Program-made: the position numbers and the translations under genes
The notes under the pieces: generated by a model
Told to the model about the DNA's origin: nothing
Database searches by the model: none
Seen by the model: the letters and a program-made list of their open reading frames with translations, nothing else
Shown: positions 1 through 42,559 of the stretch, in pieces
Layout: each line of letters starts with the position of its first letter
How positions within the stretch are numbered: position 1 is the first letter of the stretch
Source of the DNA: a virus
Reading direction: 5' to 3' (one strand)
Length of the DNA: 64,000 bases
Virus record (IMG/VR): IMGVR_UViG_3300033145_001096
Coordinates: 650 to 64,649 of that record

Positions 1-721
1 ATTTCGTTATTATTATTGGTTTATTTTTTGTTATCATTATAGTATGTTCAAAATGAGCAGTTAATCCTTTATCTTTTGATTTTACTGTCCATCCATCTTT
101 ATCTATTTCTATATCAGGTTTGTTCATAAATAACATTGGCTCAATTGCTAAAATCATACCTTCTTTCAATTTTTCTCCTTCCCCTCGATTCCCAAAACAA
201 GGTATTTTCGGAGGAAGATGTATGTCTTTTCCTATTCCATGCCCTGAATATTCTCTCATAACAGAAAATCCTTTTGATTCTGATATACTTTGTATAGCAT
301 AACTTATATCGCCTATAGTGTTACCAGGTTTTGTTTGTTTTATTGCATTGATAAGAGCGTTATAAGTAGTTTTAACTAATCTTCTTGTTGTTTTATTGGT
401 TTTCCCTATTATATAAGTTTTTGCTGTGTCTGCATACCATCCGTTATATTCTATAACAAGGTCAACCTTAATTACATCTCCTTCTTTTACAATTCTATCA
501 GATGGCACTCCATGAACAATTTCATCATTAACCGATACACATAAAAAAGAGGGAAAACTCTGATAACCCTTACACGCCAACTTGTAATCTGGGTAATTTT
601 GTAATATGAAATTTTCCGCAAAAAGAGCTATATCTTTTGTCTTAATTCCTATTGTAATTATTTTCTTCAATTTTCTCAAAATTAAACTTGCAACTTTACC
701 AGCTTTTAATATATTATTCAT
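1..721 (-). CDS. map: Methionine aminopeptidase type I (M24A); runs to the window edge
   Basis: Absent from the ORF track. Manual translation from ATG at 721: MNNILKAGKVAS...CVSVNDEIVHGVP...KVDLV...YADTAKT...GHGIG...AIEPM...HFEHTIMIT, with all five metal ligands (D,D,H,E,E). 240 codons; stop probably begins at base 1. Confidence 0.93.
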   Translation of the reverse strand, partial: MNNILKAGKVASLILRKLKKIITIGIKTKDIALFAENFILQNYPDYKLACKGYQSFPSFLCVSVNDEIVHGVPSDRIVKEGDVIKVDLVIEYNGWYADTAKTYIIGKTNKTTRRLVKTTYNALINAIKQTKPGNTIGDISYAIQSISESKGFSVMREYSGHGIGKDIHLPPKIPCFGNRGEGEKLKEGMILAIEPMLFMNKPDIEIDKDGWTVKSKDKGLTAHFEHTIMITKNKPIIITK

Positions 722-2147
722 TTATCGAATCCAATTCTATTTTTTTAACGGTATTGGGAATATCTTTAAAATGATGAAGCACCATAAATAACTGAAAAGG
801 GTAACATTCAAATATATTTACTACGTGCATAAGATTCTCACTGTCTAAACTTCCAAGCCCCTCATCGGCTATCACTATTCCAGTTTTGTTCATAGAAATT
901 AATAATGACAATTTAAAAGCAATTTGCATAATTGTAGCTTGTCCAGTTGATAAATCTTTTTGTCCATAAGTTATACCATCTTTATTGTAAAGTATTGTAA
1001 ACTTGCCTTTATCATCTATTGTAAACTTAACAACAAATCCTATCTTCTCTAAAACGCTATTTATAATTGGTTCTAAAACCTTAATACTTTCCTTTAAATA
1101 ATAGCTCGAAAGTCCATCTAACTCACTAAGAGCCCTTTTAACGATAAGAACATCCTGTGAGGTGTATATTAAGTTTTTTTGCTTCATACGGGCTTCTAAC
1201 TTGATTTTAAGGCTGTTTAGAGCCGATATACGGGCATTTAATGACTCTTTTTCGGCTTTATAGCCAGAAACTATCTCTTTCTGCATTTTTAATGTTTCAT
1301 CATGTTCTTTTATAGACTTATCTAATTTAACAATATTATTATCTATTTCTGTAAGCTGACATTTATGACTACTATCTGAAATGGGTTGTTTACAAGCATA
1401 ACAAGTTTTTGGTTGAGAAAGTATCTTTTTCTTTTGATAAAGGTGAGATAATCTTTTCCCTTCTGCCGTTCCCTTTTCTCTATTTTCCCAATTATAATCT
1501 CTATCAAATTCATTTACTTCTTTAACAATATCTCTATACTGCTTTGTAATATTATCTATACCTTTCTTTAAAATAGCCAATCTTTTTTCTGAAGGATAAT
1601 GAGAATAACAAGTCATACCATCTTTATTCAATCGTTCTCTTTCTTGTTTAATTGCTTGAAGTTTATCTTTTGCATTGTTAAATAATCCTTCTGTAAGTGA
1701 AAACAAAGTCTTTTTTATTGTAGTCTGTCCAGCACTTAAAATATCTGCATCTTTATCGTAAGCATTAATTAAGTTGAACTTTTGAAAGTGTTCACGTGTT
1801 CCAACAATATTTTCTATATATTTATTTGCTTCTAATGAAGTTTTAAATTCAACTTCTTTATCATTACGAAAAACACTTACTCTTGTAGGATAATTTCTTA
1901 TTATAACATAATTATCTTTTCCACAATCAAAATCAATAGCAACTTTACAAGATTGACTTCTATCTCTTGTAGGTAATGATGAAAGATTTGTATAAGAATA
2001 TCCCCAAAAACCAAAAAGAATACTATCCAAAATCAAAGTAGTTTTTCCTGACCCATTAGCTCCTTGAATAAAATTCATTTTAGAAAATTCCTGAGTTTTA
2101 TTTTCGAAGTTTTTAAAATTTTTAAGGGTTATTTTATTTATTTTCAT
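714..2147 (-). CDS. sbcC: SbcC/Rad50 (T4 gp46-like) recombination nuclease ATPase subunit
   Basis: Walker A GANGSGKTT, coiled coil with CYAC zinc hook, signature LSTGQ, Walker B/D-loop IADEGLGSLD. Confidence 0.9.
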   Translation of the reverse strand: MKINKITLKNFKNFENKTQEFSKMNFIQGANGSGKTTLILDSILFGFWGYSYTNLSSLPTRDRSQSCKVAIDFDCGKDNYVIIRNYPTRVSVFRNDKEVEFKTSLEANKYIENIVGTREHFQKFNLINAYDKDADILSAGQTTIKKTLFSLTEGLFNNAKDKLQAIKQERERLNKDGMTCYSHYPSEKRLAILKKGIDNITKQYRDIVKEVNEFDRDYNWENREKGTAEGKRLSHLYQKKKILSQPKTCYACKQPISDSSHKCQLTEIDNNIVKLDKSIKEHDETLKMQKEIVSGYKAEKESLNARISALNSLKIKLEARMKQKNLIYTSQDVLIVKRALSELDGLSSYYLKESIKVLEPIINSVLEKIGFVVKFTIDDKGKFTILYNKDGITYGQKDLSTGQATIMQIAFKLSLLISMNKTGIVIADEGLGSLDSENLMHVVNIFECYPFQLFMVLHHFKDIPNTVKKIELDSINE

Positions 2148-2553
2148 AATACTTCTCCAAAATAGTTCTATAAACTAATCTGTTTGGTATATACTTTTTA
2201 AAATAAATAGTATCATCATTATTAATAATTTTACTTAATGCCCCTGCAATAGCAGCACTTCTGCTTATACCAGCTTCGCATTGACAAATAATTAAATCAA
2301 CTTTATCCTTATATTCATTAAAAAATTGTATTACCTTTTCTGCCATATCATTATCAAATAATATATAAAAAGCACTACTTGGCAAATGAACACCATCTAA
2401 ATCAGAAAATTCTAAATCTAACACTTCTAAACGAGATTTTAATCTTGGTAACTTAGCAATCTCTGAATTAGGGTCTCTAACAGAAATAACAATATGCTTA
2501 TCATCTGTTATAAAATCTTTTATTTCACACCTGCTTAATACTTTAAAATTCAT
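2134..2553 (-). CDS. Cys-based (CX5R) protein-tyrosine/dual-specificity-type phosphatase
   Basis: P-loop motif CQCEAGISRSAAIA. Confidence 0.8.
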   Translation of the reverse strand: MNFKVLSRCEIKDFITDDKHIVISVRDPNSEIAKLPRLKSRLEVLDLEFSDLDGVHLPSSAFYILFDNDMAEKVIQFFNEYKDKVDLIICQCEAGISRSAAIAGALSKIINNDDTIYFKKYIPNRLVYRTILEKYYENK

Positions 2554-2941
2554 TGTAAACTCTTTCTAAATTTTTTATATATCTTTGAATATATTTTAAA
2601 GTTTTTGGAGCAAATTCTTCTAATCTTGCTAACCCAGTTCCTATTCCATCAGAAGGTATTACAATTACATTCGCCCATTCAATACATAATTTTACCCTTG
2701 CAAAATCTTCATTTATCTTTTTTATATTATCCTTATATTCTTTATCAGTATAGTAAGCGGTTATATCATTGCTTGGACGTTTTTTAACTCTTATTCCAAT
2801 TGAATTGGATTCTCCTCGCATCTCTTTGGCTTGTCCTCCATAGCCTTTTCGACAATCATTGTCCCCGAATACATATATAACCTTACGAAATTTAAGTAAA
2901 TCACTCCTTTGGATGAATTTTTGGTAAATAATTTGTTTCAT
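2543..2941 (-). CDS. Conserved phage protein (VFGDN...GGQA family), function unknown
   Basis: Motifs IYVFGDN, GYGGQAKEMRGESNSIGI, PSDGIGTGLA recur in phage proteins; no function assigned. Confidence 0.5.
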   Translation of the reverse strand: MKQIIYQKFIQRSDLLKFRKVIYVFGDNDCRKGYGGQAKEMRGESNSIGIRVKKRPSNDITAYYTDKEYKDNIKKINEDFARVKLCIEWANVIVIPSDGIGTGLARLEEFAPKTLKYIQRYIKNLERVYNEF

Positions 2942-2942
2942 T

Positions 2943-3599
2943 TTAAAAATCCCTATGTTTAATTTTCGTAATTATCCTTTGCCCCGACCTTGCTCTCAAG
3001 TCCACTTTAGGTTTAACAACTATTCCTTCTGCAAGAAAATCTTTATTTCCTAATTGAGAATTTAACGTTTTACTTTTAATTAATTCAACTCCGTCTTTTA
3101 ATGTCCCATATCCGACAATAGGAGCTACTCTTATACCTAATTGTTCAGCCAGTTCTTCTGTATCTTCTCGTTTAAGCCACCAACTACCTATTCTAATATC
3201 AAACAAAACAAAATCTATTCCCTTTCCTTCCTTAAAATATTTTCCTCCAGATTGTATTTTATGGCTTATTCCTTCTCCATATAAAGTTACATCTGGTTTA
3301 TCTTCGCTTAACTCAAAAACAGAAAATACTTTTTCTTTAGGAAATAATTCTTTTAATCTCTCTAATAAAATAAGAGGCATTTGCGCTTTATCGGTTCTTC
3401 CTTTAAACTCTACATCTTGAATAAGAGGACAAGTATAAATATTTACACGAACATTTGTTCCATCCAATTTTTCATCGAATCTCCACATGTTATCTTTTAA
3501 ATATTCGAACTCAGGAACAGAATATACCCCTTCTATTAATTTCTTACTGCCCTCCATATCTCTTTTGAAAATAGAATTAATCTTGTGATAAATGCTCAT
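2943..3599 (-). CDS. RNA ligase (Rnl2-like nucleotidyltransferase domain only)
   Basis: Motif I EKLDGTN, YGE, FVLFDI, EGIVVK, KIKHRDF. Confidence 0.8.
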   Translation of the reverse strand: MSIYHKINSIFKRDMEGSKKLIEGVYSVPEFEYLKDNMWRFDEKLDGTNVRVNIYTCPLIQDVEFKGRTDKAQMPLILLERLKELFPKEKVFSVFELSEDKPDVTLYGEGISHKIQSGGKYFKEGKGIDFVLFDIRIGSWWLKREDTEELAEQLGIRVAPIVGYGTLKDGVELIKSKTLNSQLGNKDFLAEGIVVKPKVDLRARSGQRIITKIKHRDF

Positions 3600-4441
3600 T
3601 ATATTTGCCCTTCCTCTAAAAATTTATCATACTTTTCTTTACTAACTTCTTTTCCACCAATATAATATTTTAAACTGTCTTTAAATCCTTTGCAAGTTGA
3701 ACATATAAATGTGTCAGTCTTAGATAAAAAGAACTCTTCACCTAATTGTCTTTTATCTTCTCCACAAATTGAACAAATCATTTTATACTCCTTATTATTT
3801 TGCTAATATCAACATTGATAATTCTTCTCGTGCATATATCATAAATTCTTTTTGCTAAACTTTTTCTTATTTTAATTAAATCACAAGGTTTATCACATTT
3901 ATCGCAAATATGATAACAAGTAATCTTGCCTTCTATTCTTACAGGATAACCGCAACATGAAGAGCCATAATTTCTTTTATGTAAATTTTTAAAATATTTT
4001 TTATAATAATCCATCTTAATTCTTTTCCTTTTCAGAATCAGTTATTTCTATTAGAGGCTCTTTAGAATAATGCAAAGGTTCGTGTGCTAATACTCTGGGA
4101 GTTTTCATATTTCTACTTCTAAAATTCTGTAACTTCTTAGATATTTCATATGCTATTTGAGCATTACCAATTTCCTTCATACCTACTCCATAAGATTCGT
4201 TTTGCTGCAATTCAGGGAAAAGTATAGGTTTTATTAAATCTTGTATATAAGACCCAAGCTTATATCCCATAAAAATTTCAATATGACCTTCTGATTCTTG
4301 ATTATATTCTAAAGGTTTCCCTCTCATATTACTAATACCTCGTTCTATTTCGCTTAATTGTCCAGAACACATTCTACTCATTGAGTCTAAAGCTTGTTCT
4401 ATAATTAAAGCTTGCTTTTCTGTGCATTTTATATTTATCAT
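3599..4441 (-). other. Three small hypothetical CDS (3599-3781, 3778-4014, 4016-4441), two Cys-rich
   Basis: ORF track; overlapping stop/start coupling and SD motifs. Confidence 0.65.
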
Positions 4442-4544
4442 TTTATTTCTCCTTTTTAAAAAACATTCTTACATATTATATATAAACAAATTAATATAAT
4501 TGTGCTTATTATTATTACAAAGTTAATGTCTTTTTCCCAATTTT

Positions 4545-5126
4545 TCATTTTTCTTCCTCTGTAAATTCATTGTTACAATTTAAACATTTAGCTTGTAAAT
4601 TAGTAGCACATCTTATTGTAGTGCATCCACAATTATATTTTTTCATTTTAGTAGGAGCAGTAACTGTAAAACGATTCTTACGATACAGCTTAAATACTTT
4701 ATAATTTATATTTGCTTGTTTAATGATATTGTCTAAATTATTTGATAAAGATGTTATTGCCCAACCATGTCTACCACTTTTTTCTACGTTTAAACCGTAA
4801 ATTTCGGCTTTTTCTTTAAATTTTTTATTATGATAATTTTGATTGTTACAGTCTTTTATTTTCTCACAATCATTTGTATAATGAACCATTTCATGAATTA
4901 GAGTTTCTATTGGATTTTTATTTAAGCTTTCAGCACAAATGTTAATCTCTCCAAATTCGACTTTATCCTTTTGCCATTTGTTATTCCAATACCAACCTAA
5001 TGTTTCTTTTTGTCTTCCTTTTGACTGTATAGTAATAAGAGGCTTAGATTTAAGTTTAAATCTTTTAGCTAAAAAACAATAAGTCTTTTCTAATTCTTGA
5101 ATGATAGGAACGATACTATTATCCAT
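4545..5126 (-). CDS. SprT-like zinc metalloprotease
   Basis: ETLIHEMVH, YHNKKF, C-terminal KKYNCGC...C..C zinc ribbon. Confidence 0.8.
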   Translation of the reverse strand: MDNSIVPIIQELEKTYCFLAKRFKLKSKPLITIQSKGRQKETLGWYWNNKWQKDKVEFGEINICAESLNKNPIETLIHEMVHYTNDCEKIKDCNNQNYHNKKFKEKAEIYGLNVEKSGRHGWAITSLSNNLDNIIKQANINYKVFKLYRKNRFTVTAPTKMKKYNCGCTTIRCATNLQAKCLNCNNEFTEEEK

Positions 5127-5269
5127 TTAAACTCTCCTTTAAAAGCTTTATATATTCCTCATAGGCATAAACTCTTAAAATCTTACCTTCAATTTTAGGT
5201 AATTCTCTGAATTCACCTGGCTGTGGATATTCTACACAATCCAATAGGAAATCTATTAATTCCCAAGTC

Positions 5270-6142
5270 TTATCCATTTAAAGCCTCCTTCAACATATCT
5301 CTTACATCTTTATCATTAATTTTGTTTATACCATCTGCAATTATTTCTTCAAGTTTCTTATTAGATGTAGATGCTTTTTCTACTGTTTCGACTTCCTTTT
5401 CAAAATCTAATTTTACTTTAAAAGTATGAAACTTATTCTTAAACTTATGTATTTCGTTTATACTTTTCTTAAAATCAGCAAAAGAGTTTATCACTAATCT
5501 TGCCTTAATATTTTTATTTGCTTTTTCTAATGCATCTAAAGAAAAAAAATCTTGCATTTTTATTGGGGATTCGAGTGTAACAAACTCTATCTTATTATTA
5601 TCAGTAAGAATAGCAACTCGTTTAAATTCGTCCGTAACTTCGTTAAAGTGCTGATAACGTATTGACCCAATATGAAATATGGTATCTGTAAATTTTTGTG
5701 GTTCATGCTGGTGGGCAAGGACGGCATAATTATACTTCTCTAAATCCTTAACTCCACACTTACCTGTTCCATATTCCAATTTTGACGAATAAAGCATATG
5801 ATGACCATAATAAACATTATCTTCTATAAAATGGTCTTTCGTTATTATTTTAATTTTGCCACTTAATTCTTTTAAATATTCTATAATAGCTACGTTATTT
5901 AAAAATTCGTGAGTGCCATTTCCTGCTAATAATATAACTTCTTTGTATAAAGTTGACATTTTATGTATTAATTTAGTAGCAAATTTTATTTCTTTTGGCG
6001 TAGGTCTATTCTTATCAAATAAATCTCCAAGCTGAATAACCCTATCTACCTTAATTTTAAAAATATCATTATCAAAAATAGAGTCTATTTCTTTAATACT
6101 TTCATCGGAAATATGAATATCCCCTATTAATAAAGTTCTCAT
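5270..6142 (-). CDS. sbcD: SbcD/Mre11 (gp47-like) metallophosphoesterase nuclease subunit
   Basis: GDIH, LGDL, GNGTHE, AHQH motifs; same strand and 3 kb from the SbcC-like gene. Confidence 0.85.
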   Translation of the reverse strand: MRTLLIGDIHISDESIKEIDSIFDNDIFKIKVDRVIQLGDLFDKNRPTPKEIKFATKLIHKMSTLYKEVILLAGNGTHEFLNNVAIIEYLKELSGKIKIITKDHFIEDNVYYGHHMLYSSKLEYGTGKCGVKDLEKYNYAVLAHQHEPQKFTDTIFHIGSIRYQHFNEVTDEFKRVAILTDNNKIEFVTLESPIKMQDFFSLDALEKANKNIKARLVINSFADFKKSINEIHKFKNKFHTFKVKLDFEKEVETVEKASTSNKKLEEIIADGINKINDKDVRDMLKEALNG

Positions 6143-7045
6143 TATCTTACATATCCTTTAGTTTTACTAATAATCATTACTTTATGACCGCATTTTGGAC
6201 ATTCTTCATAAGTTAAATTCAAACCTGCCAAAATTACTTCTGGAACATTAGAAATATTATAATCTCTTGAACAAGGTTGTAACATTGCTTTACTTTGAAA
6301 AGCTACATCTGCTCCACATTCAGGACAATTTACGTGAAATCTATCGTATAAACTCATTTTATTTTTCCTCTACTTTGACAAATTTGCTATCAGCATCTAT
6401 GAGTTTATCTTTACCTTTTACTAATCTAAGATTGGAAAGGGTAGTATTGACATCCATAACCTTTTTCCATCGCAAAAAATTTCGCATTTTTGGATACAAA
6501 CAAGAATAGTAAGATTTTTTATTATCTACACTTTTAAAAAATACATAAAAAAAGAAGCCCCCATATCTACTACGTTTCTTCTGAATTTTAATTATTGTAG
6601 CTATCATAATAATAAAACTCCTTTTTCACTGATAAATTTTTACATTCTTTGCAAGCCACAATATGAGGATGATAAGCATAATGCTTTAAAGTCTTATCAT
6701 AACACGCACATCTATGAGATTCTTTTTTGTTAGTTTGTGTAATTTCTTTTGGAAATAAAAAAGGACAATTATTATGACATAACTTGATATTTTGTAATGG
6801 CTCTATCCTTACTGTTGTATCTGCTACTTTTATAGCTGGCTTTTTAAACCATTCTACCAAAATATATGCTAATAAATTCTTATAAAAATATTTCCCTATC
6901 TTAATCATTCTACCTCTCCAATTTTAACTTTATCACAAGGTTTATCACATTTATCACATACATAATACATAGTAACCTTACCTTCTACTCTCATAGGATG
7001 TTTGCAACAAGATGAACCATAACGATTTATTTTTAGTTTCTTCAT
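6142..7045 (-). other. Four small hypothetical CDS (6142-6357 Zn ribbon, 6359-6607, 6588-6908, 6905-7045)
   Basis: ORF track plus manual translation of 6905-7045 (MKKLKINRYGSSCCKHP...). Confidence 0.6.
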
Positions 7046-7046
7046 T

Positions 7047-8075
7047 TTAATTATTCCCATCGTATAATTTACCATCATAAATAAATCTACCCTTGATAAT
7101 TCTTACATTCTGAACAAAGAAATTACCATTTGGCAAATAATAAACAATAACAAACCCATGACTCCATTTATTAGGCTTGTTACGAAGGTAATCTGGATTT
7201 TTGTTACATAAACATCCACCATTATAACCTATAAGGGCTATCTCTTTAGCAGGTGAACTTGAAGACCTTGAGCCAATTCTATGAGTATGAAAGAATAAAA
7301 CATTAGTCTTAAACTCATCTATATGCTTTTTTACTGCATGAACATTAGCATAAACTCCGTGAGTTGTAGAAAGTCTTCCTATTCTTTCAATATAATTCAA
7401 GTCTTCATAAATTTTATATCCTCTTTTCTCCAAATAAAGTTCTTCTGTAGGATTTAGCATACCTTCTAAAACAGGCATTTTTTCTATTAATTGATTATAC
7501 CAATCTTCATGATTACCCCAGAAAAAAGCTTTATCACAATTTTTAGGAAGTCTTACGTCATATTCATCCAAAAGAACATTTCCTGTTACATAATGCTCTT
7601 TTAATCTTTGAGTTTCGAGTGTTTTTCTTTTATGTTCATTCCAATGAGAAATAGGACCCATGTCCATAAAGTCGCCAACAATTCTAAACCCATCAAACTT
7701 AATATCTTCCATTAATTTAAGAATAGCCTTATTAGCAGGGATGTTTTGTTCTGGCACATGTTGGTCTGCTAAATAAAGATATTTCTTAAATTTTTCAGGA
7801 GGTGTATTAGCTTTAATTCCTTTAGGCAGTTTCCAAGTTCCTTGAGCAATCTTTCTACTTTTATCAACATCTACATCTGCAAGTTTATCCAAACCAAGTT
7901 TATCTTGGGTTTGTAGTTCTTTTCTTGATTTTATCTTGCCTTTTGCTCTCAGCCTTTGTCCATAGCGAGAAATAGTTCTCTCTCCTACGTTCATTAGTTG
8001 AGAAATTTCATAATCATTTTTACCTAAATTATACAATTCGATGAATAACTTCTCATTAATCTTTTTGTTTATCAT
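7047..8075 (-). CDS. Calcineurin-like metallophosphoesterase with N-terminal HTH
   Basis: LADQH, VGDFMD, WGNHE, THG, FHTH motifs; N-terminal EISQLMNVGERTISRY HTH. Confidence 0.8.
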   Translation of the reverse strand: MINKKINEKLFIELYNLGKNDYEISQLMNVGERTISRYGQRLRAKGKIKSRKELQTQDKLGLDKLADVDVDKSRKIAQGTWKLPKGIKANTPPEKFKKYLYLADQHVPEQNIPANKAILKLMEDIKFDGFRIVGDFMDMGPISHWNEHKRKTLETQRLKEHYVTGNVLLDEYDVRLPKNCDKAFFWGNHEDWYNQLIEKMPVLEGMLNPTEELYLEKRGYKIYEDLNYIERIGRLSTTHGVYANVHAVKKHIDEFKTNVLFFHTHRIGSRSSSSPAKEIALIGYNGGCLCNKNPDYLRNKPNKWSHGFVIVYYLPNGNFFVQNVRIIKGRFIYDGKLYDGNN

Positions 8076-8242
8076 TTTCTTTCTCCTTTATTCTTTTATT
8101 TTAACTACATTTGTTTTCTTGTGATAATCCCAATCAAGAACTACGTCAGAAATACTCATGTCAGTCATTTCACAATAACTCTCGTAAGAAACTTCTTTGT
8201 CTTGAGGAAACAGTTTTAACTTTTCTATTAATTCTTTAACTG

Positions 8243-8512
8243 TCATTTTGTCTCCTTTATTATATCAATCTTTAATAACCATCTTTCATTAAGTTGTTCT
8301 ATTATTACTCCAAATAAAGGTAATTTATTTTGGTCAAGAGCTTCGTTTCTTATTTTTTCAAGTAAATCTGTAGAAAGTCTAAATGATTTCTTTTCAGTAT
8401 ATTTAATTTCCAAACAATGTGTATCAGAAATGGCATCTCCCTTCTGATAAAAGGCTCCGCTATTAATAGTCTTGATAAATTTCTCTTCTGCTTTTCTTCC
8501 TTTATTCTTCAT
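8243..8512 (-). CDS. PD-(D/E)xK nuclease, Hjc-like resolvase
   Basis: GRKAEEKF...GDA...LEIK. Confidence 0.6.
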   Translation of the reverse strand: MKNKGRKAEEKFIKTINSGAFYQKGDAISDTHCLEIKYTEKKSFRLSTDLLEKIRNEALDQNKLPLFGVIIEQLNERWLLKIDIIKETK

Positions 8513-8851
8513 AAATTTTATAACTCCTTTATTGCTAATTTCTTATACCATTCGAGCCATTTTAAAATTTCTTCTTTGCTCTTACATCGATTTACTATCT
8601 TTATACTTTCATCTATAGCTTTTAAATAGAATTTTTTAAAATCTTTTCCTATATCCATCTTATGACCCCTTTATTCATTAACATTTTGTTTTATACATTT
8701 CTTACATCTGGCAGTGTGGAAGCAATCAACCAGTTTAAGATGCTCTTTGTAATATTGGCAATATTCTATTTCACAACTTAAACAAGGACAATCATCACAA
8801 TATTTAGAGTTTTGTAATTTAATATTTATTCTCATAGCAACTCTCCTTTTA

Positions 8852-8916
8852 TCTCACCTTTATTATAACATAAAACATATATCTCAAGCAAGTATATAAT
8901 CGATTTTAGTAAAATA
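8852..8916 (-). promoter_or_regulatory. Phage promoter, conserved family (TTGCTT-18-TATAAT with TG extension)
   Basis: -35 at 8886-8891, -10 at 8862-8867; near-identical ~64 bp copy at 23765-23829. Confidence 0.85.
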
Positions 8917-8930
8917 AATTATAAGTGCGG

Positions 8931-8971
8931 AAAAAGGAGCCATCAACCAGGATTACCTGATAAACAGCCCC
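8931..8971 (-). terminator. Intrinsic terminator
   Basis: GGGGCTGTTTATCAGG-TAAT-CCTGGTTGATGGCTCC stem (several G-U pairs, one mismatch) then TTTTT, just after the 8983-9195 ORF. Confidence 0.75.
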
Positions 8972-8982
8972 TCTTTGATTGT

Positions 8983-9195
8983 TTATGCTTTGGAGGATTT
9001 AGCATCTCCTTTTGGTTTTGTTCTTAAAACTATACCCGATTTTTCCATTATCGCTACTTGATTACTTCTAATATCCATCAAAAGTTTAACACCCAACGTT
9101 ATAGCTTTAACAACATTAGCAAGAGTAGCCTTATCTTCTTTAATAGCTTTATCAAGTATCTCCATGTCTTCTTTTATATGCTGTGACCTTATCAT
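8983..9195 (-). CDS. Hypothetical protein
   Basis: ORF with AGGAGG SD and downstream terminator. Confidence 0.7.
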   Translation of the reverse strand: MIRSQHIKEDMEILDKAIKEDKATLANVVKAITLGVKLLMDIRSNQVAIMEKSGIVLRTKPKGDAKSSKA

Positions 9196-9347
9196 AATCG
9201 TCCTCCTTTCTTTCTTCCTATTTCTAAATCTTTAGGAAGTTTAGGTTTTCTTTTTCTCGCTTTCAATTGTATAAAACCCTTCTTTATCGCTAATGCCATT
9301 AAAACTATTCCTACTATTACACCTAAAATAAATACAACTATCATGAT

Positions 9348-10202
9348 TTAATCCTCCATTTCTTTCTCTAAATTACGTTTAACTTTTGACCTATTATATT
9401 TCTTTTTAATAGGCTTTACCGAAGTTTTTTTGTGAAAGGTATTTCTTATTTTATAGATTAAGCAATGACAAATAGAACAAATTTCACAATTTCCTACGAT
9501 ACGTGGTTTCGGATTTTTGCATTTACAAGGTTTATTCATTGTATTCTGACCTTTTTTCATGTTATCTTTAGCCCATAAGGGCTGAAGATTCGAGTAATGA
9601 AAGCATTCACGTTGTTCTTCTGGTTTACTTAAATCAAAAGACGCACATGGTTTAATATGGTCGATGTGCCACTCTTTCTTCCCATGCCAACCATTGCCGT
9701 GATTATCCCAGGACATTCCTTTAGCAAATTTACATTGTAGATGATACATCAAATACTCAATATCACATCCTGTTAAGAACATAGTTGGTAAAGATTTAAA
9801 ATCGCCTTTTAATCCATGCCAAATACGAGTTCTTAAATTACAACGAATCTTAAAATTCATATCTGTTTTCTTGCGGTTTTTATTACATGTATTTATTTCT
9901 TTTTTATGAGATTGACTGTATTTTTTGCAGTAAAATAATTCCTCTTGTCTATGTTCTTTATAATATTGTTTACGATAAGTTTTCGTTTCCTCTTTGCGAG
10001 ATTGTCGGTATTTTCGGCTTTCTTTTCTGTGAGAGTTTCTATACTCCTCTATTTCTTTTTTATGAAGTTGGTCATATATCTTTTTCGCCTCTTTTTTACA
10101 ATCTTTACACCAATAAGATAACCCCTCTTTACGATTTTTCTTTTTACAAAATTCGGTAATCGGTTTTGTTATTTTGCATTTTGAGCAGGTTTTTGTTTTC
10201 AT
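9348..10202 (-). CDS. HNH homing endonuclease in frame with a downstream small Cys-rich ORF
   Basis: CSKC...C...C zinc finger, WHIDHIKPCASF...HYSNLQPLW; probable start MKTKT at 10202. Confidence 0.85.
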   Translation of the reverse strand: MKTKTCSKCKITKPITEFCKKKNRKEGLSYWCKDCKKEAKKIYDQLHKKEIEEYRNSHRKESRKYRQSRKEETKTYRKQYYKEHRQEELFYCKKYSQSHKKEINTCNKNRKKTDMNFKIRCNLRTRIWHGLKGDFKSLPTMFLTGCDIEYLMYHLQCKFAKGMSWDNHGNGWHGKKEWHIDHIKPCASFDLSKPEEQRECFHYSNLQPLWAKDNMKKGQNTMNKPCKCKNPKPRIVGNCEICSICHCLIYKIRNTFHKKTSVKPIKKKYNRSKVKRNLEKEMED

Positions 10203-10210
10203 CGATATAT

Positions 10211-12502
10211 TTATCCTAAATCCCATTTCATTGCCTCAAAAATTACTCTTATTTTGTTATGAATATTTCTTTCTTCCATCCTCGACCAATCTACATTTTT
10301 AATATGTCCTTTATTCTTTTTATCAAAAGCAATTACGTCTTTTAACTTACCTTTAACTTCTCTTTTTTCTCTTGTCATTCTTCCCGCTTTTTCTAAATGA
10401 GATAGGAGTTCTTCTTTTTTCCTCTGTTCCATATCTTTTGCTAATACTTTTTCACCAAAAAATTCTTTCCAAGGTTCTTTTAATTTAGAAGGTGTTAACT
10501 TTTCTCCATCAAGTAATTCTATTAGTTGCATTTTCGTATCATACTCTGTAGAATTTACATAAATATAGTAAAAATTATCACCCACCTTTTTACTAAAATT
10601 CTCAGTGTTGTTCATCGCACGAACGAAGATTGGGATGTTTTTATATTTTTCTAATGACATTCCTAATTTACATGGAACCGCTATATCTTCTAAAGGAGCA
10701 TTTTTTAAATCTGCTATTTGCGATTTTATCCAAGAAATAATTTCTTCTTTATCTACTTCGTCCATTATCTGCTTGATAAGTTCTTTTTGAAATTTCTTCA
10801 TAAATACTGTGCTATCTTTCCTTTTTATTTCTACTCCTTTTATTATTTTTTTAATCTCGCCATTTGGTTTGACTAATTCTCCTACGTATCTACACAAAGC
10901 AAGTATTAATATCTTCTTAAAATATCCTTCGAAGGTAAATTCAATTCCAATCTTTTCTTTCCCGAAAACTTCTTTTCCCCACTGTTGCACTAATTCGTTT
11001 AAAAATTTGTTTAAATTTTCTTTACTTTTAACCATTATTCCGTCTGTATCAAGATAAAGAAGTTCATAACCTTTCTCTTCGATTTTATCTTTAATATAAT
11101 GCAATAATGAACGCACAAGAAACGTAGTGGCAGATGCAACCTTTTTATTGTAAAGTCTGAAGAAACGATTTCCAAAAACACCATAACTCGAATTAACAAT
11201 TGATTTTATGGCATTATATTGCTGCTCCACATTTTTATAATCAAAGTCGTCAACTGACATTGTTGACAACTTTTGTTTAACGTTATTTTTTAAAGTCAAC
11301 AACTTATTAACAACTGTTGGTAGAATTGCATCCTCTTTTTGTTTAAAATAAGTTCCATTTATTTCGATGCAATTTTTTTGTTTTTGTAGTCTAATATTTA
11401 CAGGGTCAAGGCAAAAATCTTTTATGCTAAATGGGTAGGCTGAGATTAAATCGTATGCTCCAACGTCTTTAAGCAGACCTCTCTTAAACGCCTCTCTGTA
11501 AGCTCCTAAGTAGTCTTCTTTCTCAGATAAGGTTCCTCTGTCCTCACAAGGTTTCATAGGAAGAACTATATTTTGTTTTTTTGCTTCTGATAAAAGTAGA
11601 GAATCTATAATACGAGAAGGATAAGTTAAATCTTCCCACTCAACTTTAGAAAGTCTTCTTATTTCATCGAAGTAAGGTATAATTTGTTTTTGCTCTTCTA
11701 ATCTTACAAGCTGTTCCACATCAAGTTTATTTTTTTCTTTTATATCTTCAGATAATGTTCCAAAATCGAAATCTCCTTTTGGTTTATCTCCTAAATATTT
11801 TTGAGCAATATCATCTAATTTATAGGACTCTTCTCTATTTAAAGTTACATTTTTAAACCATGAATAATAATCGACTATAGCAACCCCTGCTGGATAATCT
11901 ACTTCACCACCATAACGAGTCTCGCTAATTGGACTAATTCTTTCAGCAAAGTCTGGGAATCTATTCGCTAAATACAGGTAATCGAAATTAACCATGTTCC
12001 ACGCCAATAACATATCAAACTTTTCTTTCTTTATATACTCAATAAAAGCGTCCATCATTTTATATTCTGATTCGTAATCTTTTAAATAATAAGTTTTATA
12101 TTCTTTACTAAAATTGTTATAAATTGTTATACAGGAAACAGGGTCTTTCGCTTCTGTTGCATCAGGCATTTCGGGTGATAAAGTTTCTATATCAAGCATA
12201 GCCCACTTTATAGGGCATTTCTCAAGATTATCAACCTTATCTATCATATACCTTTGAGTAAGAAACAAATCTGCCTCCCAAGCCTTATTTGTTCTATTTG
12301 CTCTTATATCTTTAGGATGAGAAACTATTATCTTCTTCACAGGAATACCAGTAACACTTTTAGTGCCAGTTATATCTTCATTCGAATTTTCATAATAATA
12401 AGGATAGAAGTCAGAAACTTTCTTTATAAACTGTCTACCTTCTTGGTCTCTTGTGAAAAGATATATTATACGTCCTTTATTAAATATATTTAAAAACTTC
12501 AT
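10211..12502 (-). CDS. DNA polymerase family B
   Basis: Exonuclease LDIET, AWNMVNFD; polymerase YDLISAYP, KSIVNSSYG, YLDTDG. Confidence 0.95.
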   Translation of the reverse strand: MKFLNIFNKGRIIYLFTRDQEGRQFIKKVSDFYPYYYENSNEDITGTKSVTGIPVKKIIVSHPKDIRANRTNKAWEADLFLTQRYMIDKVDNLEKCPIKWAMLDIETLSPEMPDATEAKDPVSCITIYNNFSKEYKTYYLKDYESEYKMMDAFIEYIKKEKFDMLLAWNMVNFDYLYLANRFPDFAERISPISETRYGGEVDYPAGVAIVDYYSWFKNVTLNREESYKLDDIAQKYLGDKPKGDFDFGTLSEDIKEKNKLDVEQLVRLEEQKQIIPYFDEIRRLSKVEWEDLTYPSRIIDSLLLSEAKKQNIVLPMKPCEDRGTLSEKEDYLGAYREAFKRGLLKDVGAYDLISAYPFSIKDFCLDPVNIRLQKQKNCIEINGTYFKQKEDAILPTVVNKLLTLKNNVKQKLSTMSVDDFDYKNVEQQYNAIKSIVNSSYGVFGNRFFRLYNKKVASATTFLVRSLLHYIKDKIEEKGYELLYLDTDGIMVKSKENLNKFLNELVQQWGKEVFGKEKIGIEFTFEGYFKKILILALCRYVGELVKPNGEIKKIIKGVEIKRKDSTVFMKKFQKELIKQIMDEVDKEEIISWIKSQIADLKNAPLEDIAVPCKLGMSLEKYKNIPIFVRAMNNTENFSKKVGDNFYYIYVNSTEYDTKMQLIELLDGEKLTPSKLKEPWKEFFGEKVLAKDMEQRKKEELLSHLEKAGRMTREKREVKGKLKDVIAFDKKNKGHIKNVDWSRMEERNIHNKIRVIFEAMKWDLG

Positions 12503-27058: not shown

Positions 27059-27502
27059 TTATCTCCTTTTCCATTTTGAATCTAAAATCGTCCGTCCATT
27101 CATATGCTCTATCTCATGTTGAATTGCTATACAAATCACACCATCTTCTTCTAAAGTATATATAAATCTTTTTCCATTATTCTCTATTTCTACTTCTTTG
27201 TAACGAATTGTATCTACATAAATTCCAGGAAGAGAAAGGCATCCTTCGTTTTTCATCATAAATCTATCATACTTTTCTATAATTTTAGCATTAATTAAAT
27301 CTATTGAAATCTTTTGTTGGGGAATTCTTATTATTGCTACTTTTTCTGGAATTCCTATCTGAATTCCACTCAATCCGATTCCATTTTTATGTTTTGATAA
27401 CTCTTTTTCTAATAAATCTACAATTCCATTGATTCGATTCTTATTTGCTTCTTCTGATTTTGTTTTTAATTCTTCTATATTATAAATAATTGATTTTATC
27501 AT
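27059..27502 (-). CDS. def: Peptide deformylase, C-terminally short form
   Basis: GIGLSGIQIG, EGCLS, QHEIEH. Confidence 0.92.
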   Translation of the reverse strand: MIKSIIYNIEELKTKSEEANKNRINGIVDLLEKELSKHKNGIGLSGIQIGIPEKVAIIRIPQQKISIDLINAKIIEKYDRFMMKNEGCLSLPGIYVDTIRYKEVEIENNGKRFIYTLEEDGVICIAIQHEIEHMNGRTILDSKWKRR

Positions 27503-28818: not shown

Positions 28819-29739
28819 CTACTCATAATTTGGCTCCTTTAAGAAAATTTTAATTTCTTTTAAACTAACACATCTTCCATAATTTTGAGCAATAATTCCA
28901 AAAGGACTTACTTTAGATAACCCCATAAACTGTATCAATACCCCTACCACTTTACCTTTATATAATAAAGAACCACCACTGTTACCAAACCAAATCTTAT
29001 TAGTAACAATATAATATCCCTTTTTATCCACCTGTGTAATTATACCATCAGTAATCATATCTACTATACCATTAGGGTTGCCTACTATAATAACTTCACT
29101 TCCTTCTTTAGGAGCTTCAGTAGCTATTTCAAGATAAGAAGTATTTTTTAATTGTGGAACTTTAAGCAATGCTAAATCCTTTTTCTTATTATACTTTACT
29201 ATTTCTGCTTTAGATTGTGTTCCAGAATCAGATTCAATGACTAATAAATTATCTTCTATTTTTTGTTCTATTAAATGGGCACAAGTAAGGACATAACTTT
29301 CTCCATTTATTTTTATATGTGTTCCAGAACCCATAAAGCCATATGCTAAATTCTTAATTAAAACGTTAGCCTCTTTTATCTTAGCAACTTTTTTTAAATC
29401 AATATCTTTTTTAGAATTTATTTTCTTTTCCAGTTTATCAAAATATTTATTAAATTCTTTTATAGCAGTTGTTGTAAGATTTAAAGCGTCAGAAATTACA
29501 GATTCTAAATAATCAATTTTGATTTTCGACAGTTGCTGTAATTTGATTGTAGTTAAAACAATTTTTTCTAATTCTTCTATTAATTCTTCTTGATATTGGG
29601 CTAATATATCTATCTTATTTTCAAGCATAGAAATAAAAGTTCTTTGCTCATAACAAGTATAAGATATACATCCTAATACTATAAGATTTAATGTTAATAA
29701 AGTTGTTAAAATAATTCTTCCAATGCTGAATTTATTCAT
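28819..29739 (-). CDS. Membrane-anchored trypsin-like serine protease (S1, no PDZ)
   Basis: N-terminal TM and coiled coil; TCAH, DLALL, GNSGG triad; start at ATG 29739. Confidence 0.88.
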   Translation of the reverse strand: MNKFSIGRIILTTLLTLNLIVLGCISYTCYEQRTFISMLENKIDILAQYQEELIEELEKIVLTTIKLQQLSKIKIDYLESVISDALNLTTTAIKEFNKYFDKLEKKINSKKDIDLKKVAKIKEANVLIKNLAYGFMGSGTHIKINGESYVLTCAHLIEQKIEDNLLVIESDSGTQSKAEIVKYNKKKDLALLKVPQLKNTSYLEIATEAPKEGSEVIIVGNPNGIVDMITDGIITQVDKKGYYIVTNKIWFGNSGGSLLYKGKVVGVLIQFMGLSKVSPFGIIAQNYGRCVSLKEIKIFLKEPNYE

Positions 29740-30397
29740 AATTTGCTCCTTTTTTATAATTTTCAGTTGCCCATAAGGGTTGTAAGTTAGTGTAATTAAA
29801 GCATTTACGTTGTTCGGAGGGTTTGGATAAATCGAACAATGAACAAGGTTTGATATGGCCAATGTGCCAACCATAAAACCCGTGATTTTTCCAAGTCATT
29901 CCTTTTGTAAACTGATTTTGTAAATGGTTCTTTAAGAATTCTATCGAACAACCAAGCAGCTTTTTCGTAGATGCTGCTTTGGAATTTCTTTTTATTGCAT
30001 GATGTAATCTATCTCTTAAAGTAACTAATATTTTATAATTTGAGTCTGTCTTCAATCTTTTTTTTCTTAAATTATTTCGCTCTATTTTATGAAATTTATG
30101 GTATTTTCTCATCCTTCTTAATATTTCTTTTTTATGAGTTTCTCTGTAATCTTTTGATTCTTGTTTGTGAGATTCATAATATATTTTACTGTATTCTCTT
30201 CGTTCTTGTTTATGAGCTTCTTTATATATTCTACCTTTAATAGCAATTTCCTCTTTGTTATCCAAGTAATATATTTTTCTATATATCTTAATGCAATCTT
30301 TACATGAAGAAGATAACCCATCTTTATGATTTCTATTTTTAGCGAATTCTATAATTGACTTAATTATTTTGCACTTTGAGCAAGTTTTAGTTTTCAT
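29732..30397 (-). CDS. HNH homing endonuclease (paralogue of 9348-10202)
   Basis: MKTKTCSKCK...WHIGHIKPCSLF...NYTNLQPLW. Confidence 0.85.
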   Translation of the reverse strand: MKTKTCSKCKIIKSIIEFAKNRNHKDGLSSSCKDCIKIYRKIYYLDNKEEIAIKGRIYKEAHKQERREYSKIYYESHKQESKDYRETHKKEILRRMRKYHKFHKIERNNLRKKRLKTDSNYKILVTLRDRLHHAIKRNSKAASTKKLLGCSIEFLKNHLQNQFTKGMTWKNHGFYGWHIGHIKPCSLFDLSKPSEQRKCFNYTNLQPLWATENYKKGANYE

Positions 30398-30423: not shown

Positions 30424-31029
30424 TTAATTTAATATTTCGTCAATAATCCCATATTTTAAGCATTCTTCTGAATATAGCCATAGTTCTGCGTTTCTTGCTT
30501 TTGTTAATTGAGTTTCTGAAAGTTTTGTTTGTTTTTTTAGCATTTTAAATAGTTTAGATTGTAGCCTTTCCATATTTTCAAATCTATATTTCATTTTAGT
30601 TGCATAATCATAGCCCCCTCCACACATATCATGTGCCATCCAAACAGAATTTTTGCACATATATCTCTTATCTCCAAATATAGAAATAATTGCTGCCATA
30701 GAAGCAGCTTCTCCATTAATAACAGTAAATACAGGAGATGATAATCCCGCCATACAATCGATAATGGAAAGCCCATCATAAACACATCCCCCACGAGAAT
30801 TTATATAAAGAACTATAGGAGTTTTACGGCGATAAACATCTAATGCTATTAGTTGAGTAGTAATTTTATGAGCTTGTTCTGTATCTATTACACCAGAAAG
30901 AAAAATATGCCTATTATGCAATAATATTTGTTCTGGTTTAATTTCGTTCTTATAATTAAGTTTATTTGAACGTTTACGTTTTCTCTTTTTAACAGTGGAT
31001 TTCTTTCTTTTAATCGTTTTCTTAGCCAT
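30424..31029 (-). CDS. clpP: ClpP-like protease, free-standing
   Basis: YINSRGG.V..G, AASMAA (Ser), MAH (His), L..GIIDEI. Confidence 0.9.
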   Translation of the reverse strand: MAKKTIKRKKSTVKKRKRKRSNKLNYKNEIKPEQILLHNRHIFLSGVIDTEQAHKITTQLIALDVYRRKTPIVLYINSRGGCVYDGLSIIDCMAGLSSPVFTVINGEAASMAAIISIFGDKRYMCKNSVWMAHDMCGGGYDYATKMKYRFENMERLQSKLFKMLKKQTKLSETQLTKARNAELWLYSEECLKYGIIDEILN

Positions 31030-33057: not shown

Positions 33058-33267
33058 TCATTTCTTCCTCTTCCTATTACGCAAACTCGCTAATCGTTTC
33101 TTTCTTTTCTTTACAGAAGGTTTCTCAAAACTTCTTCTATCTTTAAACTCTTTAAGCACACCTATATTTCTAATCATCTTCTTAAATTTTCGAAGTGCTT
33201 TATCGAAAGATTCTGGAGAAGAATTATCTCGATTATCAAGTAAAATTTTCTTGCCTTTAATTTTCAT
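33058..33267 (-). CDS. rpsU: Ribosomal protein bS21
   Basis: ESFDKALRKFKK..GVLKEFKDRRSFEKPSVKKRKK. Confidence 0.92.
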   Translation of the reverse strand: MKIKGKKILLDNRDNSSPESFDKALRKFKKMIRNIGVLKEFKDRRSFEKPSVKKRKKRLASLRNRKRKK

Positions 33268-42073: not shown

Positions 42074-42559
42074 TTATAAGTATAAATCAAAATATTTATC
42101 TTTCATTTCCCTTTTAACATATTTTTCCAATTGTAGCTTATCAATATCTGGTTCTCCCATGAATCCAAAACCCATTAACATTCTTCCATAATCTTCTTTT
42201 GGAATTTTAACAACTCCTTCTAATTTCATTTTAGTAGCATTTAAAAACCAATGTTCTTTATTACAAATTCCATCGTCAAGCAGTTGAAAGTCATTACAAT
42301 TTTTTCTAATTTTTTTATCTTTTAAAAGTTTCTTTCTTGTTTCTATAGGATTTATAGGAGCTTCTGAAGTAGAGTAAACATATAAATCTTTACATCTTTT
42401 AATTAAAATTATAGACCTTAAAGAATGTCTCCAATTATCAGTTACACAAATCCTTGCATTACGTTTATCTTCTCCTTTTCTTAAATAATAAGGTATATTA
42501 GGATTAAATTCATTTTCTTCATTAAGATATTGAGTAGTTACATGATACCAAGTTTTCAT
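42074..42559 (-). CDS. Hypothetical protein
   Basis: ORF; WYHVT...RICVT...E.W pattern. Confidence 0.6.
   Translation of the reverse strand: MKTWYHVTTQYLNEENEFNPNIPYYLRKGEDKRNARICVTDNWRHSLRSIILIKRCKDLYVYSTSEAPINPIETRKKLLKDKKIRKNCNDFQLLDDGICNKEHWFLNATKMKLEGVVKIPKEDYGRMLMGFGFMGEPDIDKLQLEKYVKREMKDKYFDLYL

What the first reader, a model, noticed from the sequence alone, without database searches (positions are those of the whole stretch)
1..721. Phage carries both enzymes of N-terminal Met excision (Map here, PDF at 27059)
Seen: a Map with all five metal ligands (missed by the ORF track) and a peptide deformylase in the same genome segment. Established: PDF and then Map act co-translationally at the ribosome exit; phage PDFs are known. 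Inference: carrying the sequential pair, with bS21 and ClpP, suggests the phage rebuilds the nascent-chain maturation and N-degron route, either to boost throughput or to alter which host or phage proteins are matured or degraded.
Basis: partly seen in the sequence, partly recalled or inferred. Interest (0 to 1): 0.65.

Follow-up and report, generated by a model that had tools for sequence, protein, structure and literature searches.

The report
Phage methionine aminopeptidase plus peptide deformylase
An uncultured 70-kb phage really does encode both enzymes that trim the start of new proteins, but the aminopeptidase is a sporadic pick-up from Omnitrophota-like bacteria, and the same enzyme pair recurs in many other phages.

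Summary
Window 2-721 (minus strand) encodes a complete 240-aa type I methionine aminopeptidase (MetAP, gene map). It scores 275.7 bits on TIGR00500 (cut-off 171). All five metal ligands and both catalytic histidines are present, and the AlphaFold model superposes on solved bacterial MetAPs at about 1 A. Window 27059-27502 encodes a short peptide deformylase (PDF, gene def) with its catalytic motifs but no C-terminal helix, like known phage PDFs.

- **Not one module.** The two genes lie 26 kb apart. PDF, bS21 and the ClpP-like gene are conserved in the phage's relatives. Map is missing from the same position in the only relative that covers it.
- **Origin.** Map sits in a well-supported clade of Omnitrophota MetAPs (57-62% identity), next to the Map of another 29%-GC phage.
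- **Not unique.** Of 43 IMG/VR viral records with Map, 16 also have PDF. In nine of these the two genes are adjacent. Cultured Vibrio phage V6Aob also has both.
- **N-degron idea.** Not supported: there is no ClpS, and the ClpP-like protein falls below every curated cut-off.

I found no paper describing a phage MetAP. This scan has already noted the pair on other DNA. Verdict: a new member of a known kind, of moderate interest.

The parts
1..721 (-). map: complete 240-aa type Ia methionine aminopeptidase. Coding bases are 2-721; the stop codon ends at base 1. The start codon overlaps the end of the upstream gene by 8 nt.
714..2147 (-). Upstream SbcC/SMC-like ATPase (477 aa). Its 3' end overlaps the map start. 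It is conserved in relatives G052 and G056 and anchors the synteny comparison.
27059..27502 (-). def: 147-aa peptide deformylase with all three motifs and no C-terminal helix (phage-type). Conserved in relatives of this phage.
33058..33267 (-). Ribosomal protein bS21 homologue (69 aa), conserved in the phage lineage.
30424..31029 (-). Divergent ClpP-family (S14) protease, 201 aa. It falls below the curated cut-offs for both ClpP and head-maturation protease. Its role is unresolved and no link to Map or PDF is shown.

Best explanation
The phage encodes an active type Ia methionine aminopeptidase. It belongs to the MetAP clade of Omnitrophota bacteria; in the genomes with two copies its nearest relatives are the short (~237-242 aa) second paralogue. 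It has been resident long enough to take on phage base composition and is translationally coupled to an early or middle phage gene. I infer that it works with the lineage's older, C-terminally truncated phage-type PDF as auxiliary equipment for processing nascent chains. PDF would remove the formyl group and Map would then remove Met from phage proteins with a small second residue. This would keep N-terminal maturation going, or make it independent of the host, during heavy phage protein synthesis. Shown: gene integrity, family membership, fold, phylogenetic position, patchy distribution among relatives, and recurrence of the pair in other phages. Inferred: enzymatic activity, the substrates, and any benefit to the phage.
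For: Family and active site: TIGR00500 275.7 bits against a 171 cut-off. The best solved match is T. maritima MetAP 1O0X at E=6e-59. All seven catalytic residues and the S1-pocket residues align to E. coli MetAP. The AF2 model has pLDDT 95.7 and TM 0.96-0.97 at rmsd 0.9-1.4 A to bacterial MetAPs. Origin: the nearest homologues, at 57-62% identity, are Omnitrophota MAGs or contigs syntenic with them. Three of five Omnitrophota genomes carry two type I MetAPs, and the phage enzyme matches the short one. In the tree the query lies in a 22-row clade with SH-aLRT 99, otherwise made of Omnitrophota rows and phage B (L051/L057). Residence in the phage: gene GC is 29.9% and GC3 is 18%, like the phage's SbcC-like gene (GC3 18%) and the 29.1% genome; Omnitrophota loci are mostly 32-39% GC (two at 46-48%). 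The start overlaps the upstream phage gene by 8 nt. Selection for function: 41 of 42 IMG/VR viral Maps keep all seven catalytic residues. Link to PDF: 16 of 43 Map-bearing viral records have PDF, and 9 of 13 among those at least 90% complete. In 9 records the two genes are adjacent on one strand. PDF is detectable in only 145 of 50,697 reference phage records with this query. Phages can depend on MetAP: a host metAP point mutation blocks cos-type S. thermophilus phages at a late step (PMC6761271). Phage PDFs without the C-terminal helix are active (PMC3660681).
Against: There is no biochemical or expression data. In this phage the two genes are 26 kb apart and have different histories: PDF is conserved in relatives, while Map is absent at the syntenic site of G052. 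Only 25% of predicted phage ORFs have a MetAP-permissive second residue, against a 28% background, so there is no enrichment, and my start-codon calls are crude. The enzyme lacks about 10 N-terminal residues found in E. coli MetAP, although its Omnitrophota relatives lack them too.
Confidence: 0.6

Rival explanations
1. Map is a passenger gene. It would be a neutral or near-neutral capture sitting in a variable cargo slot, with no dedicated role and no functional tie to PDF.
For: Map is absent at the syntenic position of the collinear relative G052, which carries a phosphoesterase, a kinase and small ORFs there. Viral Maps appear in at least 7 separate tree positions, as expected for repeated opportunistic capture. 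Map and PDF are 26 kb apart. Permissive second residues are not enriched in the phage proteome.
Against: At only about 60% identity to any sampled bacterial gene and with fully phage-like GC3, this is not a recent capture. All catalytic residues are intact here and in 41 of 42 other viral Maps. The start is coupled to the upstream gene. The adjacent map-def pair in a jumbo-phage clade and the high share of PDF among Map carriers argue for selection.
Confidence: 0.2
2. Map is a counter-resistance or independence device. The phage would bring its own MetAP because host MetAP activity can be lost, reduced or altered as a route to phage resistance, or falls after host shut-off. One or a few late phage proteins would strictly need Met removal.
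For: A single host metAP mutation gives strong resistance to cos-type S. thermophilus phages and to an S. mutans phage, and blocks a late step (PMC6761271). Several large late-block ORFs here start with MS or MP: the putative portal orf145, plus orf140, orf141, orf147 and orf149.
Against: Nothing is known about the host or its MetAP. The start codons are unverified. The phage's relatives manage without Map, at least G052.
Confidence: 0.12
3. Map, PDF, bS21 and ClpP together would rebuild an N-degron route that decides which proteins are degraded.
For: All four genes are present in one genome.
Against: No ClpS was found in the 69.9 kb. The ClpP-like protein scores 100 bits against a 308.6 cut-off for ClpP. 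From general knowledge, MetAP exposes G/A/S/T/P/V/C, which are not ClpS N-degrons. The four genes are scattered and Map has a different history from the other three.
Confidence: 0.04
4. Artefact. Map would belong to host DNA at the end of a chimeric or prophage contig, not to the phage.
For: The gene lies 650 bp from the left contig end, and the record is an incomplete linear contig.
Against: Its start overlaps a phage gene conserved in G052 and G056. Its GC and GC3 match the phage and not the Omnitrophota loci. The next gene is an RtcB-type RNA ligase on the same strand. A 61%-identical Map sits inside another phage contig that has a tape-measure gene.
Confidence: 0.04

Closest known systems
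Bacterial type Ia methionine aminopeptidase (MEROPS M24A; E. coli Map, T. maritima TM1478 / PDB 1O0X)
   Same: Same fold (TM 0.96-0.97, rmsd about 1 A), the same five metal ligands and two catalytic His, and a matching S1 pocket. There is no type II insert and no type Ib/Ic N-terminal extension.
   Different: It is encoded by a phage and is about 10 residues shorter at the N-terminus than E. coli Map. It does not sit in a secY-adk-map ribosomal operon. F56 and I167 replace E. coli Y65 and F177.
Second, short MetAP paralogue of Omnitrophota (for example in chromosome OY759724.1 and Ca. Susulua stagnicola MAGs)
   Same: 57-62% identity, the same short N-terminus, and the same well-supported clade at SH-aLRT 99.
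   Different: The bacterial copies sit among ferredoxin, HD and NUDIX genes at mostly 32-39% GC. The phage copy has 30% GC and shares C50 and I167 with the Map of phage contig L051/L057 rather than with the bacterial copies.
Phage peptide deformylases (cyanophage S-SSM7, PDB 3UWA; Vibrio phage Vp16, PDB 5MTC)
   Same: The PDF of this phage has the three catalytic motifs and lacks the C-terminal ribosome-binding helix, as described for those enzymes (PMC3660681).
   Different: Those phages were described for PDF alone. Here a MetAP is also present. The PDF here is only weakly similar to them (E about 1e-10 to 1e-11).
Vibrio phage V6Aob (GenBank PV454620.1), a cultured 98.7-kb phage
   Same: It carries an annotated type I methionyl aminopeptidase and also a PDF, about 13 kb apart, that is non-adjacent as here.
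   Different: It is an unrelated phage. Its Map is only 34% identical, and I found no publication discussing the pair.
Translation-related gene sets of huge phages (Al-Shayeb et al. 2020, PMC7162821)
   Same: bS21 and PDF are reported there as phage tools for taking over translation.
   Different: The main text never mentions an aminopeptidase (0 occurrences). This phage is estimated at only about 95 kb, not above 200 kb.
Adjacent map-def gene pair of uncultured jumbo phages (IMG/VR records behind L028, L030, L035-L037, L039-L041, L045)
   Same: Both Met-excision enzymes are encoded by one phage, with catalytic residues kept.
   Different: There the two genes abut on one strand and the Maps form a long-branched, virus-only clade. 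Here the genes are 26 kb apart and Map is Omnitrophota-like.

Membership tests
Type I methionine aminopeptidase (TIGR00500 / MEROPS M24A) | Score above the curated family cut-off | tested here: met
   TIGR00500 275.7 bits against a 171.35 cut-off; PF00557 163 bits
Type I methionine aminopeptidase (TIGR00500 / MEROPS M24A) | Five dinuclear-metal ligands (D, D, H, E, E) and the two catalytic His | tested here: met
   D87, D98, H161, E194 and E225, plus H70 and H168, aligned to E. coli D97/D108/H171/E204/E235 and H79/H178
Type I methionine aminopeptidase (TIGR00500 / MEROPS M24A) | Pita-bread fold without the type II helical insert | tested here: met
   AF2 pLDDT 95.7; Foldseek TM 0.96-0.97 and rmsd 0.9-1.4 A to bacterial type I MetAPs; 240 aa with no insert
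Type I methionine aminopeptidase (TIGR00500 / MEROPS M24A) | Methionine-specific S1 pocket (E. coli C59, Y62, Y65, C70, F177, W221; the residue list is from memory, the alignment is from the tool) | tested here: met
   C50, Y53, F56, C61, I167 and W211; two of these are conservative hydrophobic replacements
Type I methionine aminopeptidase (TIGR00500 / MEROPS M24A) | Removes the initiator Met from peptides with a small second residue | not testable with these tools
   Needs an enzyme assay or complementation
Peptide deformylase (PF01327; type 1, phage-type truncated) | Three catalytic motifs: GxGxAAxQ, EGCLS, HExxH | tested here: met
   GIGLSGIQ (AA replaced by SG), EGCLS and HEIEH, aligned to H. 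pylori PDF 2EW5 at E=4e-19
Peptide deformylase (PF01327; type 1, phage-type truncated) | Score above curated cut-offs | tested here: inconclusive
   PF01327 85.8 bits against 22.8 (met). TIGR00079 equivalog 89.9 bits against 103.95 (not met). This is a divergent short form
Peptide deformylase (PF01327; type 1, phage-type truncated) | C-terminal ribosome-binding helix of bacterial type 1 PDF | tested here: not met
   The protein ends 6 residues after the last aligned position (147 aa; aligned through residue 141 to bacterial chains of 168-181 aa). This matches published phage PDFs (PMC3660681)
Bacterial N-degron pathway (ClpS-ClpAP) | ClpS adaptor present | tested here: not met
   No PF02617 match in the 69,856-bp record, which is about 74% complete
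Bacterial N-degron pathway (ClpS-ClpAP) | Canonical ClpP proteolytic subunit | tested here: not met
   TIGR00493 100 bits against 308.6. Also below the head-maturation model NF045542 at 96 against 120. Only the broad PF00574 family is met

The most novel reading that the evidence does not exclude
N-terminal methionine excision may be a step that phages repeatedly take under their own control. MetAP appears in at least seven separate places in the tree of viral genomes. It has become a fixed, adjacent map-def gene pair in one clade of 107-183-kb phages. Here it has been added to a lineage that already kept a helix-less PDF and bS21. If so, phage MetAP and PDF together would form an undescribed auxiliary pathway. 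That pathway would make virion protein maturation independent of the host and could defeat host resistance that works through MetAP. This phage would also be one of the first recognisable phages of Omnitrophota.
Probability: 0.3. Interest if true: 0.6.

Novelty: new member of a known kind. Interest (0 to 1): 0.4.

Why it matters
Phage PDF is a textbook auxiliary gene, but I could not find the next enzyme of the pathway, MetAP, described for phages in the searchable literature. It is also absent as a family from PHROGs and from BFVD phage entries. Showing that phages recurrently carry both enzymes, sometimes as an adjacent pair, would extend the idea of phage takeover of translation to co-translational protein maturation. 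It would also connect to the finding that host MetAP can decide phage sensitivity. Separately, the Omnitrophota affinity of this Map gives a testable host lead for a poorly known phage group. This particular instance is a fairly ordinary host-gene capture.

Tried and rejected
- I could not read the contexts of the nearest unnamed homologues P0002 and P0006 (a 71.8-kb Logan contig). P0009 and P0012 were recovered through the other scans (L128, L051).
- **Single-sequence scan.** A scan of IMG/VR with Map alone found nothing. An alignment was needed.
- **Cluster look-up.** The listing of cluster members gave no names or accessions for the closest homologues.
- **bS21 as host marker.** The search returned only phage-lineage relatives, so it gave no host signal.
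- **Relative G056 (70 kb, 77 shared ORFs).** It looked ideal for testing whether Map is conserved. Its contig ends inside the gene just upstream of the Map slot, so it says nothing either way.
- **Second-residue analysis.** There is no enrichment of MetAP-permissive residues (25% against a 28% background). I do not use it as support.
- **Reference phage hits.** Most of the 42 'phage' hits to Map in the reference collection are multi-contig or unverified records from bacterial cultures (Listeria, Enterococcus, Staphylococcus, Acinetobacter MD-2021a). I read these as likely host contamination and did not count them.
- **Head-maturation protease reading of ClpP.** Considered and left open. The protein is below that model's cut-off and lies 30 kb from the portal region.
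- **Literature.** Five searches for phage-encoded MetAP found no description. The library lacks most subscription journals.

Full report
**What is there**

The window is bases 650-64649 of a 69,856-bp linear IMG/VR virus record. CheckV estimates it at about 74% complete, and it has 29% GC. The reported gene is a minus-strand ORF at window 2-721. It touches the window edge, so the default ORF list skips it. On the full contig it is a complete 240-aa protein at contig 648-1370.

It scores 163 bits on Pfam Peptidase_M24. It scores 275.7 bits on the NCBIfam equivalog for type I methionyl aminopeptidase, whose cut-off is 171.35. Its best solved relative is the Thermotoga maritima enzyme 1O0X at E=6e-59.

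The alignment to E. coli MetAP places every catalytic residue:
- The metal ligands are D87, D98, H161, E194 and E225.
- The two catalytic histidines are H70 and H168.
- The methionine pocket is C50, Y53, F56, C61, I167 and W211.

The same catalytic columns are invariant among 30 homologues. An AlphaFold2 model has mean pLDDT 95.7. It superposes on Rickettsia, Pseudomonas, E. coli and Thermotoga MetAPs at TM 0.96-0.97 and rmsd 0.9-1.4 A. The protein starts about ten residues later than E. coli Map, as do its nearest bacterial relatives.

The deformylase at window 27059-27502 (147 aa) scores 85.8 bits on PF01327 and matches the PHROG for peptide deformylase. It keeps the three motifs (GIGLSGIQ, EGCLS, HEIEH). 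It stops a few residues after the catalytic helix, so it lacks the C-terminal helix of bacterial type 1 enzymes. Frank et al. described exactly this for cyanophage and vibriophage PDFs (PMC3660681). It falls below the strict TIGR00079 cut-off, 89.9 against 103.95, so it is a divergent short form.

bS21 at 33058-33267 and a ClpP-family protein at 30424-31029 are also present.

**Where the Map came from**

The nearest proteins in a 5.8-billion-protein collection are 57-62% identical and mostly unnamed. The named ones are Omnitrophota MAGs. A scan of species-representative genomes returned these as the top loci:
- an Omnitrophota chromosome (OY759724.1);
- Ca. Susulua stagnicola;
- several MAGs that share synteny with them.

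Most of the closest metagenome contigs share flanking genes with those MAGs, so they are bacterial. Three of five Omnitrophota genomes examined have two type I MetAPs: a canonical one of about 254 aa and a shorter one of about 237-242 aa. The phage enzyme resembles the shorter one. In the chromosome that copy lies among ferredoxin, HD and NUDIX genes rather than in a ribosomal operon.

In a maximum-likelihood tree of 84 Maps, the phage protein falls in a clade of 22 rows with SH-aLRT 99. The other rows are Omnitrophota sequences plus two contigs, L051 and L057. The phage Map joins L051 and L057, though only weakly (support 82). L051 is itself a phage: a 76-kb contig with 29% GC and a tape-measure gene. 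The three phage Maps share C50 and I167, against S and M in the two Omnitrophota short copies compared (L128, L129).

The gene has 29.9% GC and 18% GC3. That matches the phage rather than the Omnitrophota loci, which are mostly 32-39% GC. Its ATG overlaps the stop region of the upstream SbcC-like gene by 8 nt. It is therefore an integrated phage gene of some age, not assembly contamination.

**Is the pair a module in this phage?**

No. The two genes are 26 kb apart. I found relatives of the phage through its family-B DNA polymerase and its PDF.
- **G052** (38 kb, 48 shared collinear ORFs), **G053** and **G056** (70 kb, 77 shared ORFs) all keep PDF and bS21. G052 and G056 also keep the ClpP-like gene.
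- **Map slot.** G052 covers the position downstream of the SbcC-like gene and has no M24 protein anywhere. That slot holds a metallophosphoesterase, a P-loop kinase and small ORFs instead.
- **Uninformative relatives.** G056 ends inside the SbcC-like gene, and G053 ends at the polymerase. Neither says anything about Map.

So PDF is old equipment of the lineage. Map is a later or patchy addition in a variable slot that here also holds an RtcB-type RNA ligase.

**Is the pair unusual among phages?**

Map is rare in curated phage data.
- PHROGs has no MetAP family. The best hit is a weak partial match to an unnamed M24 family.
- BFVD returns only giant-virus M24 proteins.
- Most of the 42 tblastn hits in 50,697 reference phage records look like bacterial contigs filed under phage names.

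Uncultured phages tell a different story. A pattern-limited scan of IMG/VR found 43 viral records with Map. Of these, 16 also have PDF, and the figure is 9 of 13 among records at least 90% complete. For comparison, PDF is detectable in only 145 of 50,697 reference phage records with this query, which is a lower bound.

In nine of the 16 records, the Map and PDF matches lie within 750 bp on the same strand. These are phages of 76-183 kb, several with terminal repeats. Their Maps form a long-branched, virus-only clade.

The converse sample gives a similar picture. Of 50 viral records chosen for a PDF like this one, five have Map, and none of those five was in the first set. Cultured Vibrio phage V6Aob carries an annotated type I MetAP and a PDF 13 kb away. 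A 595-kb uncultured phage also has both.

Viral Maps occupy at least seven separate positions in the tree. Of 42 examined, 41 keep all seven catalytic residues. The pair is therefore recurrent, independently assembled and apparently under selection. That supports a functional link in general and removes any claim that this phage is special.

**Mechanism**

The most likely reading is auxiliary nascent-chain processing. The phage PDF would deformylate new phage proteins. The phage Map would then remove Met from those with a small second residue. This would keep maturation going when phage protein synthesis is heavy or host enzymes decline.

Two published results make this reasonable. Helix-less phage PDFs are highly active (PMC3660681). 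A single host metAP mutation blocks a late step of cos-type Streptococcus thermophilus phages (PMC6761271).

I could not strengthen this from the phage proteome. Only 34 of 134 predicted ORFs (25%) have a permissive second residue, against 28% in bulk composition. Several large late-block ORFs do begin with MS or MP, but my start calls are crude.

The N-degron idea is not supported. There is no ClpS. The ClpP-like protein is far below the ClpP equivalog cut-offs and also below the head-maturation model. From general knowledge, the residues MetAP exposes are not bacterial ClpS degrons.

**Literature and earlier notes**

Five full-text searches found no description of a phage-encoded MetAP. The main text of the huge-phage survey of Al-Shayeb et al. 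lists PDF and bS21 but never an aminopeptidase. The library omits most subscription journals, so this is absence of evidence only.

Earlier notes of this scan report the same theme on other DNA:
- MetAP with PDF in giant phages related to Bacillus phage G;
- an adjacent def-map pair;
- a MetAP in a 40-kb phage.

So the scan has found this before. My IMG/VR results agree with those notes.

**Verdict**

The specific interpretation (a rebuilt maturation and N-degron route) is only partly supported. This instance is a host-derived auxiliary gene added to a lineage that already had PDF and bS21. That makes it a new member of a known kind, of moderate interest. The more interesting lead is the general one: the recurrent and sometimes adjacent map-def pair in phages. 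It needs a controlled survey and a knockout in a tractable phage such as V6Aob.

Noticed in passing
L207-L214 and L129 (Omnitrophota genomes G044-G046): Three of five Omnitrophota genomes carry two type I MetAPs: a canonical one of about 254 aa and a short paralogue of about 237-242 aa. The chromosome OY759724.1 has three PDFs, and one PDF lies 3.9 kb from the short Map.
   Followed up: partly
L028, L030, L035-L037, L039-L041, L045 (IMG/VR phages of 76-183 kb), around locus positions 9250-11900: Adjacent map-then-def gene pair (def-then-map in L028). The PDF ORFs are unusually long at 205-255 aa, and most have variant motif 1 and 2 sequences. The Maps form a long-branched, virus-only clade.
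   Followed up: partly
Contig bases 3-638 (just left of the window) and window 2943-3599: An RtcB-type RNA ligase (truncated by the contig end) lies directly downstream of Map. A second, Rnl-type RNA ligase (PF09414) and a DUF7831 protein lie nearby. This suggests an RNA or tRNA repair set.
   Followed up: partly
Window 714-2147 compared with L226:3060-5605: In relative G052 the SbcC-like ATPase is followed by a metallophosphoesterase (a possible SbcD/Mre11-like partner) and a P-loop kinase. Neither has a homologue in this phage's 70 kb, where Map and RtcB occupy the slot.
   Followed up: partly
Window 30424-31029 and 28819-29874: The ClpP-family protein is below the curated cut-offs for both ClpP and head-maturation protease. 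It lies in the early/replication gene block, downstream of a FEN-like exonuclease and separated by one small ORF from a 351-aa trypsin-like protease. It is conserved in G052, G054 and G056.
   Followed up: partly
Window 59048-59935, contig 64943-65593 and window 42556-42954: Three ORFs (orf140, orf146, orf101) hit overlapping stretches of one region in relative G052 (about 10.5-11.2 kb), and orf140/orf146 overlap again in G056. They share a repeated domain, perhaps a mobile endonuclease. orf146 sits after the putative portal, where a protease might be expected.
   Followed up: no
L051 (Ga0255052_10000054, 76 kb), locus 730-10726: A second 29%-GC phage carries an Omnitrophota-like Map. It is preceded by a sulfotransferase, an APS kinase, a DUF3326 protein and a SprT-like protein, which looks like an auxiliary-gene island beside the tape-measure gene.
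   Followed up: partly
IMG/VR sample 3300035698 (L219, L220): Two relatives of this phage come from the same metagenome as the Ca. Susulua stagnicola (Omnitrophota) MAG, which holds one of the closest Maps. This is weak circumstantial support for an Omnitrophota host.
   Followed up: no
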